Shown: piece after piece, positions 1,553-18,252 of the stretch | How the letters are laid out: each line of letters begins with the position of its first letter | How positions within the stretch are numbered: the first letter of the stretch is position 1 | Virus record (IMG/VR): IMGVR_UViG_2778261084_000005 | Span: 1-28,897 of that record | From: a virus | Taxonomy: Duplodnaviria; Heunggongvirae; Uroviricota; Caudoviricetes | Direction: 5' to 3' (one strand) | DNA: 28,897 bases | Notes under the pieces: model-generated | Databases searched by the model: none | What the model saw: the letters and a program-made list of their open reading frames with translations, nothing else | What the model was told of the DNA's origin: nothing | Program-made: the position numbers and the translations under genes

Positions 1553-1753
1553 TCACGAGGACTGAAGTTTCTCGCAATTAAAATTTATCAGTTTTACTTT
1601 CTGCTCTCTGGAAACGCCTGCTTCTTTTTTACCTGAGAGCATTTTTTCGCATTCTGATTTCGTTAGTTTAGATTTTGAATATCTTGTCCAGTTAGTAGGA
1701 GTGCCACCTTCCTTTTCAATAGTGGCGGTAATTTTATACATGAACACCTCCAT
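1553..1753 (-). CDS. Small prophage protein, YdaC/RcbA-like; start ambiguous (1741, 1753 or 1813)
   Basis: 86-aa ORF in track; its 5' part overlaps the ralR frame, so an internal Met (MEVFMYK or MYKITA) is more likely the real start. Confidence 0.45.
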   Translation of the reverse strand: MEVFMYKITATIEKEGGTPTNWTRYSKSKLTKSECEKMLSGKKEAGVSREQKVKLINFNCEKLQSS

Positions 1754-11334: not shown

Positions 11335-11757
11335 ATGGCAAAAGTATTTACACCAGAAGAGCGGGAAAAAATTAAAGGGCAGGTTGTTGAACTTGTACGT
11401 CTGAGCGGTCGCGAGACGTTACGGGCTCTGGAGGCTAAAACCGGTGCATCAAGGTATTACATAAGCACTCTCGCCAGAGAACTGGTCGCCAGTGGTGATG
11501 TTTACAATTCAGGCTACGGATTATTCCCGTCTGAGCAGGCGCGTAAAGACTGGCAAAACGCCCGCAAAAAACTATCAAGGGCAAAGGTGAAGAAACCGGT
11601 TGTGGTTGATCCTGACCTTATCTGGTCATTACCAGACGGAGAAATACGCCGTTACGACAGGCGTCTGAACATAATCTGTCGCGAGTGCCTGAAGAGAGAA
11701 GTTATGCAGCGTGTACTTGCGTTCTACCATGGAAATATTCAGGAGGTTGTGTGGTGA
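11335..11757 (+). CDS. Hypothetical phage protein with HTH-like segment (141 aa)
   Basis: ATG at 11335 preceded by GGAGG; segment GRETLRALEAKTGASRYYISTLAREL looks HTH-like. Confidence 0.45.
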   Translation: MAKVFTPEEREKIKGQVVELVRLSGRETLRALEAKTGASRYYISTLARELVASGDVYNSGYGLFPSEQARKDWQNARKKLSRAKVKKPVVVDPDLIWSLPDGEIRRYDRRLNIICRECLKREVMQRVLAFYHGNIQEVVW

Positions 11758-11864
11758 ACAAGATTAACTATCCGTGGGTAGTCGCTGTCAATGCTTTACT
11801 TGCTGAAGTTCGGGCGGGCGCATTTAACGATCTTTGCGCGGAACAACTTCGCACGCATGAATAA
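11754..11864 (+). CDS. Possible small ORF (36 aa, GTG start) coupled to upstream gene
   Basis: AGGAGG at 11741-11746, GTG at 11754 overlapping the upstream TGA; below track cutoff, no family recognised. Confidence 0.2.
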   Translation: MNKINYPWVVAVNALLAEVRAGAFNDLCAEQLRTHE

Positions 11865-11931
11865 TTAAGTTAGCACTGTAAATAAAATTTAATCCTTAGC
11901 CGGAGGTATTTCTGCACCCTCATAAAATCAG

Positions 11932-11958
11932 GAAACCGCCCGAAAGGGCGGTGGTTTC
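11932..11958. terminator. Bidirectional intrinsic terminator hairpin (GAAACCGCCC-GAAA-GGGCGGTGGTTTC)
   Basis: GC-rich stem with GAAA loop; U-rich tract on the minus-strand side, 6 nt downstream of the 184-aa gene stop. Confidence 0.6.
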
Positions 11959-11963
11959 ATTGT

Positions 11964-12518
11964 TTAACTATCTAATATTGTGCTAAATCTTTTTATAACC
12001 ATCAAGAATGTTACTACGGTAAAAAAGAAGGATGAGTATGCTAAATAACTGATTATGTAAGCAGGGGTTGCGAAATACCATTTTTTTAATTCACTTGGGG
12101 TTTCTGGGAGAAAATATATTGCAACCGAAAAAATAACTAACGCTACAGATGTTAATATAGCATAAGAAACATTGTGACATAATTGCTCATATACGGTTTT
12201 ATTATTATTTAAAATTATTAGATTTGAACGTGGTTTGTTGTTTTCCTCAATGTCTGAAATTTTAAATACAGTTTTTTGTTTTTGATCGTAGATCATAATA
12301 ACCGCGCTCATTAACAGTGCGGTAGTAATTGCTCCAAAGTTAACAAAAACAGATGCGATAGAGGTTTTCATTATCCCATAGGTAAAACATATGATTAATG
12401 ATAATGTAAGAGGAATAATGAAGTGTATTGCGATGTCTTCGAGTAAAATATTTCCGCGTTGATCCGACATTGTTGTGTAATGTTTTTTTATTACACTCAT
12501 TACGTTAATCTTGTTCAT
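11964..12518 (-). CDS. Polytopic inner-membrane protein, four predicted TM helices (184 aa); downstream gene of candidate defence operon
   Basis: Four hydrophobic stretches of about 21-28 residues with a charged loop between helices 2 and 3; ATG overlaps the upstream gene's TGA (ATGA at 12515-12518); AT-rich. Confidence 0.7.
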   Translation of the reverse strand: MNKINVMSVIKKHYTTMSDQRGNILLEDIAIHFIIPLTLSLIICFTYGIMKTSIASVFVNFGAITTALLMSAVIMIYDQKQKTVFKISDIEENNKPRSNLIILNNNKTVYEQLCHNVSYAILTSVALVIFSVAIYFLPETPSELKKWYFATPAYIISYLAYSSFFFTVVTFLMVIKRFSTILDS

Positions 12519-13447
12519 ATTTTTAATCCCCCATTACCACTATGTAACTCACTTAGTATATCATTCGCAATGATTTTAACTGTGTCATGAAGTGCTTTAA
12601 GATTGGGGATTCCTGTAGATGCGTTTATGTTTAAGTCGTTATCATCTAATTCGGCAGAAATTCCTTTTCTTAAGATGGTGTCGTAATTAAAAATGACTGT
12701 TCTATTGCCTAATTGTAAACTAACTTTTATTGCGTCACACTTATCTTCAATTATTTCTATTATATTTCCTAGTTTTTTGTCTTTTAAGTCTTTAAAACTA
12801 CCAAATACGCCTTGATTTGCTTTTATTACCAAATCGGTTTTGATGTTTGTTTTGTTATTTCCGAATGAATCCGTGATGTCCTTTGGTGCTTTGTAACCTT
12901 GGGCTTTTATTTGTTTTAATTCTGAATCAAGGATGTGTTGGGGGATTTTTTTGTGGCAAAGAGGATTGATTCTCGCTTCAAGTTTATATTTTGTTTTCAA
13001 GTGGTCTAGTAATGCATCAGAGAGTGTGCTGCGAGCAGAAATATTGTCATTAGCGTGAAATGCTATAATCCCTTCTTCTAAATTGTCTGGCAAAAATATT
13101 AAAATGTAACGCTGTTTGAGAGTTACATCGTTGATAGTTGTTGTATAACGTATTTTAGTAAGTTTATCGTCTTTTATTTCACTGCTCTCACCATATTTCC
13201 CAACCTTTACATATCCATATATTACTTGGTTTTGAGCATCAAAGGTGAGTGATGTGTGTTGTTCAAGAGAAACCTTTGTTTTCGAGAGACCAAATTCAAT
13301 AGGTGTGTTTTTATAGCTATTAAAATACTCAACAAATAATTCATATGCTGTTTTTTTATCGCTTAAACCTAGGTTGTTTAGTCTTTTGCTGGTTCGGCTG
13401 CCCTTGTGGGTTAACACACGGAATGAATAGAAGTTAACGCTGTGCAT
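12515..13447 (-). CDS. Soluble protein of unknown function (310 aa); upstream gene of candidate defence operon
   Basis: ORF with AAGGA ribosome-binding site about 9 nt before ATG at 13447; no TM segments; Lys/Asn/Ile-rich; no family recognised by eye. Confidence 0.7.
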   Translation of the reverse strand: MHSVNFYSFRVLTHKGSRTSKRLNNLGLSDKKTAYELFVEYFNSYKNTPIEFGLSKTKVSLEQHTSLTFDAQNQVIYGYVKVGKYGESSEIKDDKLTKIRYTTTINDVTLKQRYILIFLPDNLEEGIIAFHANDNISARSTLSDALLDHLKTKYKLEARINPLCHKKIPQHILDSELKQIKAQGYKAPKDITDSFGNNKTNIKTDLVIKANQGVFGSFKDLKDKKLGNIIEIIEDKCDAIKVSLQLGNRTVIFNYDTILRKGISAELDDNDLNINASTGIPNLKALHDTVKIIANDILSELHSGNGGLKI

Positions 13448-13464
13448 GAAAAGTCCTTTTGAAC

Positions 13465-13500
13465 ATATAGGAATATATTAGAGCATGAATGTGTGCAATG
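13465..13500 (-). promoter_or_regulatory. Putative sigma70-type promoter region for the two-gene operon
   Basis: On minus strand: TTGCAC (13493-13498) followed by TAATAT/TATATT candidates; spacing imperfect (12-15 nt). Confidence 0.25.
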
Positions 13501-13872
13501 CATAAAAGAAAAAGCTACCGCAAGGCGACTCCACCCACAGATAGCTCTTAATTGATTGTTTGTAAAAAATAATACATTAATTATCTTCTGTGTAAAGAGG
13601 GAAACAGCCTTAGGGTAAGGGACACGAGTTGGGGGGACTGGTGAAATTTGCGTTGAGGATAAAACGATTTGCGGGAAAAGGATAGTTAAGTAGAATTGCT
13701 GCGGGTGCTTGAGGCTGTCTGCCTCGGGCATGAACACCAAAGGCAGATAGAGAAAAGCCCCAGTTAACATTACGCGTCCGGCAAGACGCTTAACATTAAT
13801 CTGAGGCCACATCTATGCTTTGCATACGTAGATTAGCCTCTTACCGACCAAAAGGTCAAGGAGAAGCAGGTT

Positions 13873-14028
13873 ATGAAGCAGCAAAAGGCGATGTTAATCA
13901 CCCTGATCGTCATCTGTTTAACCGTTATAGTGACGGTACTGGTAACGAGGAAAGACCTCTGCGAGGTACGAATCCGAACCGACCAGACGGAGGTCGCTGT
14001 CTTCACAGCTTACGAACTTGGGGAGTAA
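13873..14028 (+). CDS. hok: Hok/Gef-family type I toxin (51 aa)
   Basis: Own translation MKQQKAMLITLIVICLTVIVTVLVTRKDLCEVRIRTDQTEVAVFTAYELGE; AAGGAG site upstream. Overlapping mok-like leader ORF starts at 13815 and now runs into IS186. Confidence 0.85.
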   Translation: MKQQKAMLITLIVICLTVIVTVLVTRKDLCEVRIRTDQTEVAVFTAYELGE

Positions 14029-14050: not shown

Positions 14051-15389
14051 CATAAGCGCTAACTTAAGGGTTGAACCATCTGAAGAATGCGACGCCTCGG
14101 TGCCTCGTTAAGACGATGCCTCGCGTTCTTCAATTGCGTTTTGTAGGCTGTCAGGGATACTGTCCCACGAATGGCCACCTGTAAGCTCCAGATGACCATT
14201 TTTGTTATTCTCCACAACGAGTTAGTTCTTCTTTTCGGATCCGGCACTTCTGGGGGGGAAATCCAGCGATGGCTGGATTATGTCGTCAATTAAAAATGCG
14301 GCGAGTAGATTAGCAAATATCCACGCTTTCGCGAGTTCAGGTTCCTTTGCACGCAAAGCATCCAGGTGCAGCAAACTTTTGAGCCGCTTAAAAGCCAGTT
14401 CAATTTGCCATCGCAGACGGTAACAATCAGCCACTTGCTCTGCTGAATATTCATCTTCCGGTAATGATGTTAGCAATAGCACATGGCCCGCTGCTTCCAG
14501 CGTTTCCGCCTGAACTACTCGTCCTTTTCGACGATTCTCGCTGAGCAGTCGGGTTTTACTGATTAATGCTTTTTCGGGAGGAAGTGATACGGCAATGAGA
14601 CGTGCCGGAAAGGGAGCTCCGGCTTTTTTATTACCTGAATTGCCTATCATTACAGTGGTTTCACCGTTCTTACCGCAATCCAGCCCGCGCAGAAAACCCA
14701 TCATGTCAAAGCGCATTCCTTCTGCAGTTAACCAGCGCAATCCTCGCCAGTGAACCCGGACGATATAATCAGCTTCTCCAAAAGCAAGTGAGCGGATACA
14801 TTCGGGACGCGAACCGAATCCCCGGTCAGCAATGCGTATCTCGTCTGCCGTTTGCGCAAATCGGTCCAGCCGTTCAGCGTCTCTGCTGTCGGTTAGCTCA
14901 AAATCAGTGAACTGACAGGTATGAGGATCATATCCCATATGTAGTCGCCATTCAGCGCTGCCGCCCCCGGGCGCACTGATTGCTGTTCCATCGACAAGAC
15001 GCAATCTCTTTCCGCTTGTACAACCCGTAACTGCGGCGCGTACAGCAAGTGTTTGTGCGGCAAGTATGCCAAACCAGTCGGCGGCATTCCGCAGCCGCTT
15101 CAGGAGAGCCACGTCAGATAATGTTGCAACGTCATGGAGCTGAGCCCATGCAGTGACTTCACGTAATGACATCCCCCCGGGGCCGTAAGCCAGCCCCAGA
15201 CGTAGCAGAGTTGCAGCATCACGAATTTCGCGGCGGCGGGTTAGAGCCCCGGCATTACGTGCCGAAGTATCCAGTTCTTCGGGCTTACCAATATGGGCCA
15301 GAATTGCTGACCAGTTATCGTGAGAGTAATTCATCGGCACGTTAAATCATATCAGGCGTAATACCACAACCCTTAAGTTAGCGCTTATG
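14051..15389 (-). mobile_element. IS186 (IS4 family), 1339 bp, complete
   Basis: Terminal inverted repeats CATAAGCGCTAACTTAAGGGTTG at 14051-14073 and reverse complement at 15367-15389; single transposase ORF. Confidence 0.9.
14222..15334 (-). CDS. insL: IS186 transposase (370 aa from MNYSHDNW)
   Basis: Translation matches recalled InsL essentially along its length. Confidence 0.9.
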   Translation of the reverse strand: MNYSHDNWSAILAHIGKPEELDTSARNAGALTRRREIRDAATLLRLGLAYGPGGMSLREVTAWAQLHDVATLSDVALLKRLRNAADWFGILAAQTLAVRAAVTGCTSGKRLRLVDGTAISAPGGGSAEWRLHMGYDPHTCQFTDFELTDSRDAERLDRFAQTADEIRIADRGFGSRPECIRSLAFGEADYIVRVHWRGLRWLTAEGMRFDMMGFLRGLDCGKNGETTVMIGNSGNKKAGAPFPARLIAVSLPPEKALISKTRLLSENRRKGRVVQAETLEAAGHVLLLTSLPEDEYSAEQVADCYRLRWQIELAFKRLKSLLHLDALRAKEPELAKAWIFANLLAAFLIDDIIQPSLDFPPRSAGSEKKN

Positions 15390-17721: not shown

Positions 17722-18252
17722 GGGCTGGTTTATTGTATGCCAAATGATTATTAAAAAGGTTGTGTTAATAACAAAATCCGAAATAATATGCCTGCATATT
17801 TTTATCTTGCTTATATTCTGCATATTGTGCATAGCAGGCTCATCCCTGCAATCAAAACTGTATGATGAGTATTTTTTGTTTTCCTTTTTTCCAGTCATCT
17901 GATGATGACCTGCTTCTTTTTAATCCGGATCGACATCAGTTTTTTAAGATAATTCCTGCGAGTTATATGCATAAATGCCACAAACTCCGCATTTTATGTG
18001 GTTGGGAGTTGCCGGGCGCGCAGTGAGTTTGCTAAGAAAACTCCTGCATGGTGAATCCCCCTGTGCGGTGGGGTGATACCATTAACCTTTTCTGTCGCCG
18101 ACAGGTATCACGAACATTTTGTTCACCGGGAGGCACCCGGCACCATGTACTTCAATAGATTCTCTCCACATTATGGATATTCTTTCAGAATATCCCACGC
18201 AGACTTTGTGTAAATGTTAACAAATGTGCGTTTTATTTGATCTGATTCGCTG

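What the first reader, a model, noticed from the sequence alone, without database searches (positions are those of the whole stretch)
11932..13500. AT-rich, reverse-oriented two-gene operon: candidate undescribed defence / abortive-infection system
A 310-aa soluble protein (12515-13447) is translationally coupled by an ATGA overlap to a 184-aa protein with four predicted transmembrane helices (11964-12518). The pair has its own ribosome-binding site and a strong hairpin terminator 6 nt after the second stop. It is transcribed opposite to all flanking phage genes and is visibly more AT-rich than its neighbours. It sits between the replication module and the nin/Q region, next to a Hok toxin locus and an IS186 copy, which is a typical prophage cargo hotspot. 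I could not assign either protein to a family by eye. The architecture (cytoplasmic protein plus small polytopic membrane protein) is that of known two-component abortive-infection modules such as lambda RexAB, but that is an analogy, not shown homology.
Basis: partly seen in the sequence, partly recalled or inferred. Interest (0 to 1): 0.85.

Follow-up and report, generated by a model that had tools for sequence, protein, structure and literature searches.

The report
RexAB-like two-gene phage defence cassette
A small AT-rich two-gene cassette in a Rac-like E. coli prophage encodes a soluble protein with the fold of phage lambda RexA and a conserved four-helix membrane partner, so it is most likely an unannotated member of the RexAB/Sucellos type of abortive-infection phage defence, not a new kind of system.

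Summary
There are two reverse-strand genes, A (310 aa, 12515-13447) and B (184 aa, 4 TM, 11964-12518). They share an ATGA overlap and have their own promoter-like site, ribosome-binding sites and a terminator hairpin. GC is 0.32 against 0.46 for the rest of the window. The cassette sits between the replication module and hok/sok of a Rac-like prophage.

Both genes are real: dN/dS is about 0.05. They form a conserved module: ten of ten distant A homologues examined are followed directly by a B homologue.

Context supports defence. AbiH fills the same prophage slot in another strain. A cI-type repressor and an AbiJ-like gene precede the pair in a Halomonadaceae locus. Homologues occupy the variable slot of SGI1-type islands and lie next to the repressor of a Pf inovirus.

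Two RexAB-like systems without Pfam matches are already validated: V. cholerae Sucellos and P. putida RexABpp. This pair is probably their relative, but their sequences could not be retrieved to test it. Verdict: new member of a known kind, moderate interest.

The parts
13569..13596 (-). Promoter-like site of the cassette (TTTACA, 16 nt spacer, TATTAT)
   Evidence: Consensus scan, 10 of 12 matches. Both hexamers are invariant in the 75%-identical E. coli allele loci, and the site is conserved in Citrobacter. Function is inferred.
13448..13568 (-). 5' leader of about 115-120 nt, with a stem-loop (about 13510-13549) followed by a U-rich run
   Evidence: The leader is 84-90% identical between alleles whose coding sequences are only about 75% identical. 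It occurs only in the 37 genomes that carry the pair, whereas the adjacent hok region is in 4944 genomes. The fold is not better than shuffles, z -0.96. A terminator-like pattern was found at 13517-13529.
13454..13458 (-). Shine-Dalgarno-like AAGGA of gene A
   Evidence: Read from the sequence.
12515..13447 (-). Gene A: 310-aa basic (pI 9.1) soluble protein with a RexA/RdgC-like two-domain fold; proposed DNA-binding sensor
12527..12532 (-). Shine-Dalgarno-like GGGGGA of gene B, inside the 3' end of A
   Evidence: Read from the sequence.
11964..12518 (-). Gene B: 184-aa inner-membrane protein with 4 TM helices and an invariant TM2 motif VNFGAITTALLMSA; proposed effector
   Evidence: ORF. AF2 pLDDT 87.5 with four long helices. 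Hydropathy. Family invariants H13, P36, L68, L69, N116, T170, M173, K176, R177. phrog_15250. No RexB similarity.
11921..11952 (-). Intrinsic-terminator-like hairpin (stem 11935-11952) with an interrupted U tract; also scored on the + strand
   Evidence: -16.7 kcal/mol, z -2.0.
11930..13650 (-). Extent of the mobile cassette (promoter, leader, A, B, terminator)
   Evidence: Megablast shows the whole 1661-nt stretch in 36-37 of 5426 E. coli genomes. Homology of other hok loci begins only at window positions about 13646-13695.

Best explanation
This is a self-contained cargo cassette of a prophage, probably expressed in the lysogen. It most likely encodes a RexAB-type two-component abortive-infection system.

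Protein A is a cytoplasmic, basic protein with the RexA/RdgC two-domain fold. It probably forms a dimer that binds DNA and acts as the sensor of an infecting phage, for example by recognising phage replication or recombination intermediates or a phage protein.

Protein B is a four-helix inner-membrane protein with both termini in the cytoplasm. It probably oligomerises into a pore or channel. When A triggers it, it depolarises or permeabilises the membrane, stops growth and aborts the infection.

Shown here: gene structure, purifying selection, strict A-B linkage across a large family, the fold similarity of A to RexA, and location in defence and cargo slots of several kinds of mobile element.

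Inferred: DNA binding and dimerisation of A, pore formation by B, activation of B by A, expression in the lysogen, and the defence phenotype itself.
For: 1. Architecture is the same as lambda rexA-rexB: a soluble protein of about 300 aa, then a small 4-TM protein, translationally coupled.

- The secondary-structure order of the model matches the RexA description: an N-terminal beta-rich domain, a conserved NPL hinge, a middle domain of 4 strands plus helices, and a C-terminal helix that returns to the first domain.

3. Profile-profile comparison of the A family with the RexA family:
- score 33.3, P 6.8e-4, probability 27%;
- collinear over about 150 columns, in the same register with three different query alignments;
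- 60 shuffled profiles gave mean 17.6 and maximum 24.9.

4. A-B linkage. Ten of ten more distant A homologues examined (17-43% identity; three shown only as A-like ORFs) are followed directly, by overlap or a gap of under 12 nt, by a protein matching the B-family HMM at E 1e-13 to 5e-75.

5. Purifying selection: dN/dS about 0.05.

6. Context:
- PADLOC-confirmed AbiH occupies the same DUF977-hokD slot, also on the reverse strand, in strain Ec1117.
- In Modicisalibacter the order is cI-type repressor, AbiJ_NTD4/PDC-S32, A, B, as in lambda cI-rexA-rexB.
- In Pf inovirus PfAC16 the pair lies beside the phage repressor.
- The 40%-identical pair A023-A024 of AGI1 fills the SGI1-family backbone slot that otherwise holds a helicase-endonuclease pair or restriction-modification systems (PMC9035990).

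Against: - No sequence-family match of A or of 139 family members to Pfam RexA, and none to PADLOC v2 or NCBIfam models.
- hhalign probability is only 6-27%.
- Foldseek against BFVD did not list lambda RexA in its top 50. It did list an RdgC-like phage protein at E 3e-3.
- B shows no similarity to RexB by Pfam, hhalign, HMM or Foldseek.
- In this window the pair is not next to the repressor, as rexAB is in lambda.
- There are no experimental data for this pair, and the promoter is only a consensus match.
- In mycobacteriophage Butters the roles of the RexA-like and RexB-like proteins are reversed (PMC12894663). Which protein is the effector therefore cannot be read from homology.
Confidence: 0.6

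Rival explanations
1. Non-abortive superinfection exclusion. The membrane protein B, with A as a cofactor, blocks DNA entry or an early step of incoming phages at the envelope without harming the host, in the manner of Sie-type prophage proteins.
For: B is a small polytopic inner-membrane protein encoded by a prophage. The same prophage carries sieB. The pair is carried by temperate phages of several types, including Pf inoviruses, which encode small membrane exclusion proteins.
Against: Exclusion proteins are usually single genes and need no 310-aa DNA-binding-fold partner. The strict A-B coupling and the RexA-like fold of A fit a sensor-effector pair better. The validated relatives of this architecture act by growth arrest or lysis (10.1101/2024.07.02.601686; PMC12894663).
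Confidence: 0.12
2. Addiction or toxin-antitoxin-like stabilisation module of mobile elements. B is a membrane toxin held in check by A (or the reverse, as in Butters gp30/gp31), and its main role is to keep the prophage, island or plasmid in the cell.
For: The pair occurs on many kinds of mobile element: lambdoid prophages, a Pf inovirus, an SGI1-type island, small plasmids and conjugative elements. In this window it lies directly beside the hok/sok addiction locus. In the SGI1-type island it lies beside the sgiT/sgiA-like pair. Butters shows that Rex-like pairs can work by sequestering a toxic partner (PMC12894663).
Against: There is no similarity to any toxin-antitoxin family in Pfam, NCBIfam or PADLOC. 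The slots it occupies alternate with Abi, restriction-modification and Gabija-like genes, not only with toxin-antitoxin loci (PMC9035990). The two readings are not exclusive, since many toxin-antitoxin modules also defend.
Confidence: 0.12
3. Phage life-cycle function. A is an RdgC/RexA-like DNA-binding protein that modulates recombination or the lysogeny-lysis switch, as reported for lambda RexA independently of RexB. B is an accessory membrane anchor with no defence role.
For: Fold similarity to RexA and RdgC. Lambda RexA biases the bistable switch toward lysis (PMC11077077). The pair lies next to repressors in L016 and in PfAC16.
Against: The pair is sporadic, found in 37 of 5426 E. coli genomes, and swaps with unrelated cargo at the same slot. 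That is not expected of a core regulatory function. It also occurs in non-phage elements. The invariant coupling to B argues that the membrane protein is central.
Confidence: 0.08

Closest known systems
Phage lambda RexA/RexB exclusion system (Pfam PF15969 / PF15968; PDB 8TWQ)
   Different: No Pfam or PADLOC match for either protein. A is 310 aa against 279, and B is 184 aa against 144. B has no detectable relation to RexB. In this window the pair is far from the immunity region, on its own promoter, and reverse-oriented within the early-right operon.
Sucellos (SclA/SclB), Vibrio cholerae superintegron cassette (bioRxiv 10.1101/2024.07.02.601686)
   Same: A two-gene cassette with its own promoter. 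The authors describe it as structurally RexAB-like but not matched by the RexA/RexB Pfam models. SclB is predicted to form a transmembrane pore, both genes are required, and the phenotype is abortive. Homologues lie mostly in prophages, often in Salmonella. The closest relatives of the present pair are abundant in Salmonella: clusters of 361 and 398 member sequences.
   Different: Direct homology could not be tested. The SclA/SclB sequences and the homologue table were not retrievable with these tools. No V. cholerae superintegron member was seen among the 30 family clusters whose names were looked up.
RexABpp (PP_5643/PP_5644) of Pseudomonas putida prophage P1 (PMC12894663)
   Different: HHpred linked PP_5643 to RexA at 98% probability, far higher than the 27% obtained here. 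RexABpp lies downstream of the cI-like repressor.
A023-A024 of AGI1 and related SGI1-family islands (PMC9035990)
   Same: A true homologous pair: A023 is 40% identical to A, and its 178-aa partner matches the B HMM at E 5e-75 with the same 4-nt overlap.
   Different: It is carried by an integrative mobilisable island instead of a prophage. It has only been described as ORFs of unknown function in a variable backbone segment.
Kiwa (KwaA 4-TM plus KwaB DUF4868); comparison rests on my own knowledge of the system
   Same: A small polytopic membrane protein paired with a soluble DNA-binding protein of about 310 aa in a two-gene defence system.

Membership tests
Lambda RexAB (sequence families PF15969 RexA / PF15968 RexB) | Protein A matches the RexA sequence family | tested here: not met
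   No Pfam hit at E<=1 for A. None of 139 family members hits PF15969 at E<=10. Lambda RexA itself scores 1e-97. No PADLOC hit.
Lambda RexAB (sequence families PF15969 RexA / PF15968 RexB) | Protein B matches the RexB sequence family | tested here: not met
   No PF15968 hit. hhalign probability 0.6%. B-family HMM against RexB gives E=7. No RexB among the Foldseek BFVD hits.
RexAB-type systems (structural and architectural sense used in PMC12894663 and 10.1101/2024.07.02.601686) | Soluble component has the RexA/RdgC two-domain fold | tested here: met
RexAB-type systems (structural and architectural sense used in PMC12894663 and 10.1101/2024.07.02.601686) | Detectable remote sequence homology of A to RexA by profile-profile comparison | tested here: inconclusive
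   hhalign probability 6-27%, P 6.4e-3 to 6.8e-4. The alignment is collinear and scores above all 40 and 60 shuffles. No secondary-structure scoring was available.
RexAB-type systems (structural and architectural sense used in PMC12894663 and 10.1101/2024.07.02.601686) | Adjacent downstream gene encodes a small four-TM inner-membrane protein, conserved as a pair | tested here: met
RexAB-type systems (structural and architectural sense used in PMC12894663 and 10.1101/2024.07.02.601686) | Both genes required for phage exclusion; membrane damage triggered through the soluble partner | not testable with these tools
   Needs plaque assays, A overexpression with and without B, and membrane-potential or dye-uptake assays.
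Sucellos (SclA/SclB) | blastp homology (E<1e-5, coverage >=50%) of both co-localised genes to V. cholerae SclA and SclB, or a hit to the DefenseFinder Sucellos models | not testable with these tools
   Sequences and Table S7 are not held. V. cholerae chromosome 2 is not in the collections. DefenseFinder is not available here.
Sucellos (SclA/SclB) | RexAB-like predicted structure without RexA/RexB Pfam match; own promoter; homologues in prophages, often in Salmonella | tested here: met
   conserved promoter-like site; Salmonella clusters of 361 and 398 members. This is consistent with membership but is not proof.
RdgC (PF04381) | Sequence match to the RdgC family | tested here: not met
Kiwa (KwaA/KwaB) | KwaA and KwaB (DUF4868) family matches | tested here: not met
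   No PADLOC or Pfam hit for either protein or for 10 distant homologues.

The most novel reading that the evidence does not exclude
The A/B family is an independent lineage, blastp-distinct from both Sucellos and RexABpp. It has at least 579 clusters at 50% identity, no Pfam model, and members across the Gammaproteobacteria sampled. It pairs a RexA/RdgC-fold sensor with a membrane effector unrelated to RexB (invariant VNFGAITTALLMSA helix and C-terminal T-x-x-M-x-x-KR). It has spread as a defence cassette across lambdoid prophages, Pf inoviruses, small plasmids and SGI1-type resistance islands. On this reading the RexA fold is a widely reused phage sensor that has been coupled to different pores several times.
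Probability: 0.3. Interest if true: 0.6.

Novelty: new member of a known kind. Interest (0 to 1): 0.42.

Why it matters
RexAB was the first abortive-infection system discovered, and its trigger and mechanism are still unresolved. Only a handful of Rex-like systems have been studied.

This work shows that a large, unannotated family follows the same design. It has 579 clusters at 50% identity, and every named member is called 'hypothetical'. It is absent from Pfam, NCBIfam and PADLOC v2.

The family travels on prophages, filamentous phages, plasmids and SGI1-type antibiotic-resistance islands. That gives many natural variants for comparing what RexA-fold sensors recognise and how the membrane partner is gated. 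It also gives annotation pipelines a concrete family to add.

The E. coli version sits in a tractable host, in a Rac-like prophage, so the classic Rex questions could be asked with standard coliphage panels.

Tried and rejected
- Direct family assignment failed. Pfam, NCBIfam and PADLOC gave nothing for A or B, nor for 10 and then 139 distant A homologues. PHROGs gave only families of unknown function. Sequence search of PDB chains gave nothing.
- hhalign of the narrow alignments against single lambda RexA or RexB sequences showed no signal. A signal appeared only with broad profiles on both sides.
- Foldseek of B against BFVD gave no significant hit and no RexB. The afdb50 library was unavailable.
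With A2 only 4 species-representative genomes were found.
- Attempts to obtain the Sucellos sequences or homologue list all failed: accession searches in papers, the supplement, a V. cholerae accession, a locus-tag search, and name look-ups of 30 family clusters.
- The DefensePredictor supplements contain none of the RefSeq accessions of this pair.
- Kiwa was considered because of its 4-TM plus 310-aa architecture and rejected for lack of any match.
- The idea that the conserved 5' leader is a known RNA element found no support. Rfam at gathering thresholds finds only sok, RalA and STnc100 in the window, and the leader folds no better than shuffles.
Full report
**1.

The reverse strand carries gene A (12515-13447, 310 aa) and gene B (11964-12518, 184 aa), with stop and start overlapping as ATGA.

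- Ribosome-binding sites: AAGGA lies 6 nt upstream of the ATG of A, and GGGGGA precedes the ATG of B.
- Terminator: a GC-rich hairpin (stem 11935-11952) follows the B stop codon. It folds at -16.7 kcal/mol with z -2.0 and has an interrupted U tract. The terminator pattern scan also picks it up on the + strand.
- Composition: GC is 0.323 for the pair against 0.464 for the rest of the window, and GC3 is 0.29.
- Membrane topology of B: four hydrophobic segments, and an AlphaFold model (pLDDT 87.5) of four long helices. By the positive-inside rule both termini and the 36-residue central loop face the cytoplasm (the topology is inferred).

The window is a Rac-like prophage integrated at ttcA and is 99.9% identical to E. 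coli L73 over the locus. The pair lies between the DUF1627/DUF977 genes at the end of the replication module and the sok/hok locus. An IS4-family element (IS421/IS186 type) follows hok.

**2. The genes are real and form one mobile cassette.**

The 1.66-kb stretch occurs in 37 of 5426 complete E. coli genomes, always once and always on the chromosome. There are two allele groups, one at about 99% and one at about 75% nucleotide identity, and both genes are annotated 'hypothetical protein'.

Between the alleles, synonymous sites are saturated while dN is 0.14-0.17. For A this gives dN/dS of about 0.05.

The roughly 200 nt upstream of A are better conserved than the coding sequence, at 84-90% against 75%. 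This stretch includes the promoter-like TTTACA-16-TATTAT at 13569-13596 and a leader of about 115 nt. It occurs only in the 37 genomes that have the pair, whereas the adjacent hok region is found in 4944 genomes. The cassette therefore runs from about 11930 to about 13650 and brings its own expression signals.

**3. No known sequence family, but a large one of its own.**

Pfam, NCBIfam and PADLOC v2.0 give nothing for either protein. PHROGs gives two families of unknown function, phrog_15676 and phrog_15250. Close homologues down to 36% identity are all in Enterobacterales, with the largest clusters in Salmonella.

An exhaustive profile search with the A alignment finds 579 clusters at 50% identity with E<=1e-3. 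Nearly all are 298-333 aa. The family is connected at blastp level, and the window's subfamily is an outlying branch, about 22% identical to the central clade.

Named members come from Enterobacterales, Halomonadaceae, Zymobacter, Aeromonas, Acinetobacter, Glaesserella, Vibrio and Pseudomonas. Every one is 'hypothetical'. None of 139 members hits any Pfam family consistently.

**4. A and B are an obligate pair.**

For ten more distant A homologues (17-43% identity) whose loci were read, the next gene encodes a 171-197-aa protein. It either overlaps A by 4-17 nt or starts within 12 nt. It has four hydrophobic helices and matches the B-family HMM at E 1e-13 to 5e-75.

Residues invariant in B across this range are H13, P36, L68, L69, N116, T170, M173, K176 and R177. 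In the close family the whole second helix, VNFGAITTALLMSA, is invariant.

**5. What A looks like.**

The model's order of elements matches the published description of RexA, which has a split globular domain, a hinge, a dimerisation domain and a C-terminal helix:
- a beta-rich N-terminal domain ending in a strand;
- a conserved NPL hinge;
- a middle domain with four main strands and short helices;
- a long C-terminal helix.

Sequence evidence is weak but consistent. Narrow profiles against single sequences gave nothing. A 143-sequence A profile against a 36-homologue RexA profile gave score 26.2 and P 6.4e-3, while 40 block-shuffled controls reached at most 20.8. A better-aligned central-clade profile gave score 33.3, P 6.8e-4 and probability 27%, while 60 shuffles gave mean 17.6, sd 3.0 and maximum 24.9.

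All three alignments are collinear and in the same register. They pair the family's '..inPL' with RexA's 'iEPLMR' hinge, and 'ElvIKpk' with 'EIiIKPK'.

Evidence against homology:
- The hhalign probability stays below 30%.
- Foldseek against BFVD does not list lambda RexA. It finds family members in uncultured phages and an RdgC-like phage protein at E 3e-3.

I read A as a probable remote homologue of RexA with the same fold, and not as a member of the RexA sequence family.

**6. What B looks like.**

B has no detectable relation to RexB by Pfam, hhalign, HMM or Foldseek. It shares only the general design of a small four-helix inner-membrane protein. The same was reported for the membrane partner of the validated P. 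putida system (PMC12894663).

**7. Context points to defence.**

- In the same prophage slot (DUF977 to hokD), other E. coli prophages carry one of the following: forward-oriented small phage genes; a reverse-oriented AbiH (PADLOC E 2e-27) plus a 463-aa protein; a SMEK-domain protein with a methyltransferase; or relBE in Qin.
- In Modicisalibacter muralis the order on one strand is cI-type repressor (HTH plus S24 peptidase), an AbiJ_NTD4 protein matching PADLOC candidate PDC-S32 (E 2e-94), then A, then B. This is the lambda cI-rexA-rexB layout with an extra defence gene.
- In Pseudomonas inovirus PfAC16 the pair (ORF1/ORF2) lies beside the phage repressor.
- In Yersinia and Brenneria it lies in plasmid or conjugative-element DNA.
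- A 40%-identical pair is carried by an SGI1-related island. It is named A023 in one source and is 'MULTISPECIES' across Enterobacter, Proteus, Salmonella, V. cholerae and A. baumannii. It lies between traH and an sgiT/sgiA-like pair plus resolvase. A survey of these islands says A023-A024 of AGI1 occupy the variable backbone segment that holds a helicase-endonuclease pair in SGI1 and restriction-modification systems in other islands (PMC9035990).

**8. Comparison with what is known.**

Sizes and termini were recovered from that paper and its primers. RexApp is about 320 aa, with N-terminus MHRTATF and C-terminus ...KINHSTDV. RexBpp is 185-189 aa. These fit the present family (N-terminal motif MH-x-x-A-x-[YF], C-terminal ..[IL]HS..) better than they fit lambda. 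This is an inference from about 20 residues.

Separately, Sucellos (SclA/SclB) from the V. cholerae superintegron is described as structurally RexAB-like but not matched by the RexA/RexB Pfam models. It has its own promoter, requires both genes, has a predicted SclB pore and gives an abortive phenotype. Its homologues are found mainly in prophages, 'often in Salmonella' (10.1101/2024.07.02.601686). Later preprints treat it as a recognised system.

This description fits the present pair closely. However, I could not retrieve SclA/SclB or the homologue table, so membership remains untested.

**9. Mechanism proposed.**

In the lysogen the cassette's own promoter drives A and B at a fixed ratio through translational coupling. 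During lytic growth, rightward early transcription would run antisense to it.

A is a basic protein with the RexA/RdgC fold, likely a dimer that binds DNA. It senses an infection cue and activates B. B oligomerises in the inner membrane and dissipates the membrane potential or permeabilises the cell, which halts growth and aborts the infection.

Shown here: anatomy, selection, pairing, fold and context. Inferred: every biochemical step and the phenotype.

Rivals are non-abortive exclusion at the membrane, an addiction module, and a phage life-cycle role for a RexA/RdgC-like protein. Each is given with its evidence in the rival list.

**10. Verdict.**

But this is most likely a new, unannotated member of the already described RexAB-like (Sucellos/RexABpp) kind, not an undescribed system.

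It has moderate interest. The family is large and absent from the common annotation libraries. It is spread across very different mobile elements, including antibiotic-resistance islands, and it now has a tractable E. coli representative.

Noticed in passing
window 13448-13650 (- strand): The promoter and 5' leader of the cassette are more conserved (84-90% identity) between the two E. coli alleles and Citrobacter than the coding sequences (about 75%, dS saturated). The leader holds a stem-loop (about 13510-13549) followed by a U-rich run that matches a terminator pattern. This could be an attenuator, or the conservation could mark a recombination boundary. The leader folds no better than shuffles.
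   Followed up: partly
window 11757-13700 slot; loci L017-L024: The slot between the DUF977 gene and hokD of lambdoid prophages is a cargo hotspot. Different strains carry small forward phage genes, a reverse-oriented AbiH plus a 463-aa unknown protein (strain Ec1117), a SMEK-domain protein with a methyltransferase, a B3/B4-domain gene, or relBE (Qin).
   Followed up: partly
L026 8001-9469 (also L027): A 40%-identical A/B pair lies in an SGI1-related integrative mobilisable island. The A homologue is named 'A023' in one source and is MULTISPECIES across Enterobacter, Proteus, Salmonella, V. cholerae and A. baumannii. The pair sits between traH and a subtilase plus AAA ATPase (sgiT/sgiA-like) and a resolvase, next to mioC/mnmG. 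Published surveys list A023-A024 of AGI1 in the variable segment that holds a helicase-endonuclease pair or restriction-modification systems in other islands.
   Followed up: partly
L025 412-1883 (Pseudomonas phage PfAC16, OR863247): A filamentous Pf inovirus carries an A/B homologue pair (ORF1 311 aa, ORF2 179 aa, 4-nt overlap; B HMM E 1.5e-34) immediately beside its repressor gene.
   Followed up: partly
L016 4189-8558 (Modicisalibacter muralis): A cI-type repressor, an AbiJ_NTD4 / PADLOC PDC-S32 candidate defence protein, A and B lie in one orientation. A weak LmuA-like protein and UmuC follow. This looks like a small defence cluster in the immunity region of a prophage.
   Followed up: partly
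window 13703-14028 and 14222-15340: A sok/hok type I toxin-antitoxin locus (Rfam sok, 104 bits; Hok ORF 13873-14028) lies divergent from the cassette. An IS4-family IS421/IS186-type element is inserted directly downstream of hok, between it and the DUF1367 (nin-region) gene.
   Followed up: no
window 1557-1735 and 18016-18202: Rfam finds the RalA antitoxin sRNA of the RalR/RalA type I toxin-antitoxin system (225 bits) and the sRNA STnc100 (83 bits) elsewhere in the prophage.
   Followed up: no
L014 (QFQM01000595.1, 1.7-kb contig): A B homologue with 71% identity sits on a tiny contig binned as a 'Flavobacterium psychrophilum' MAG. Given the Enterobacterales-level identity, this is probably a binning contaminant, not a Bacteroidota member.
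   Followed up: no
Foldseek BFVD hits: The same uncultured phage (Siphoviridae sp. ctylc9) supplies the second-best structural match for A (A0A8S5S8L2, E 8e-10) and for B (A0A8S5S8H0, E 0.17, probability 0.99). This suggests the pair is also present in that phage.
   Followed up: no
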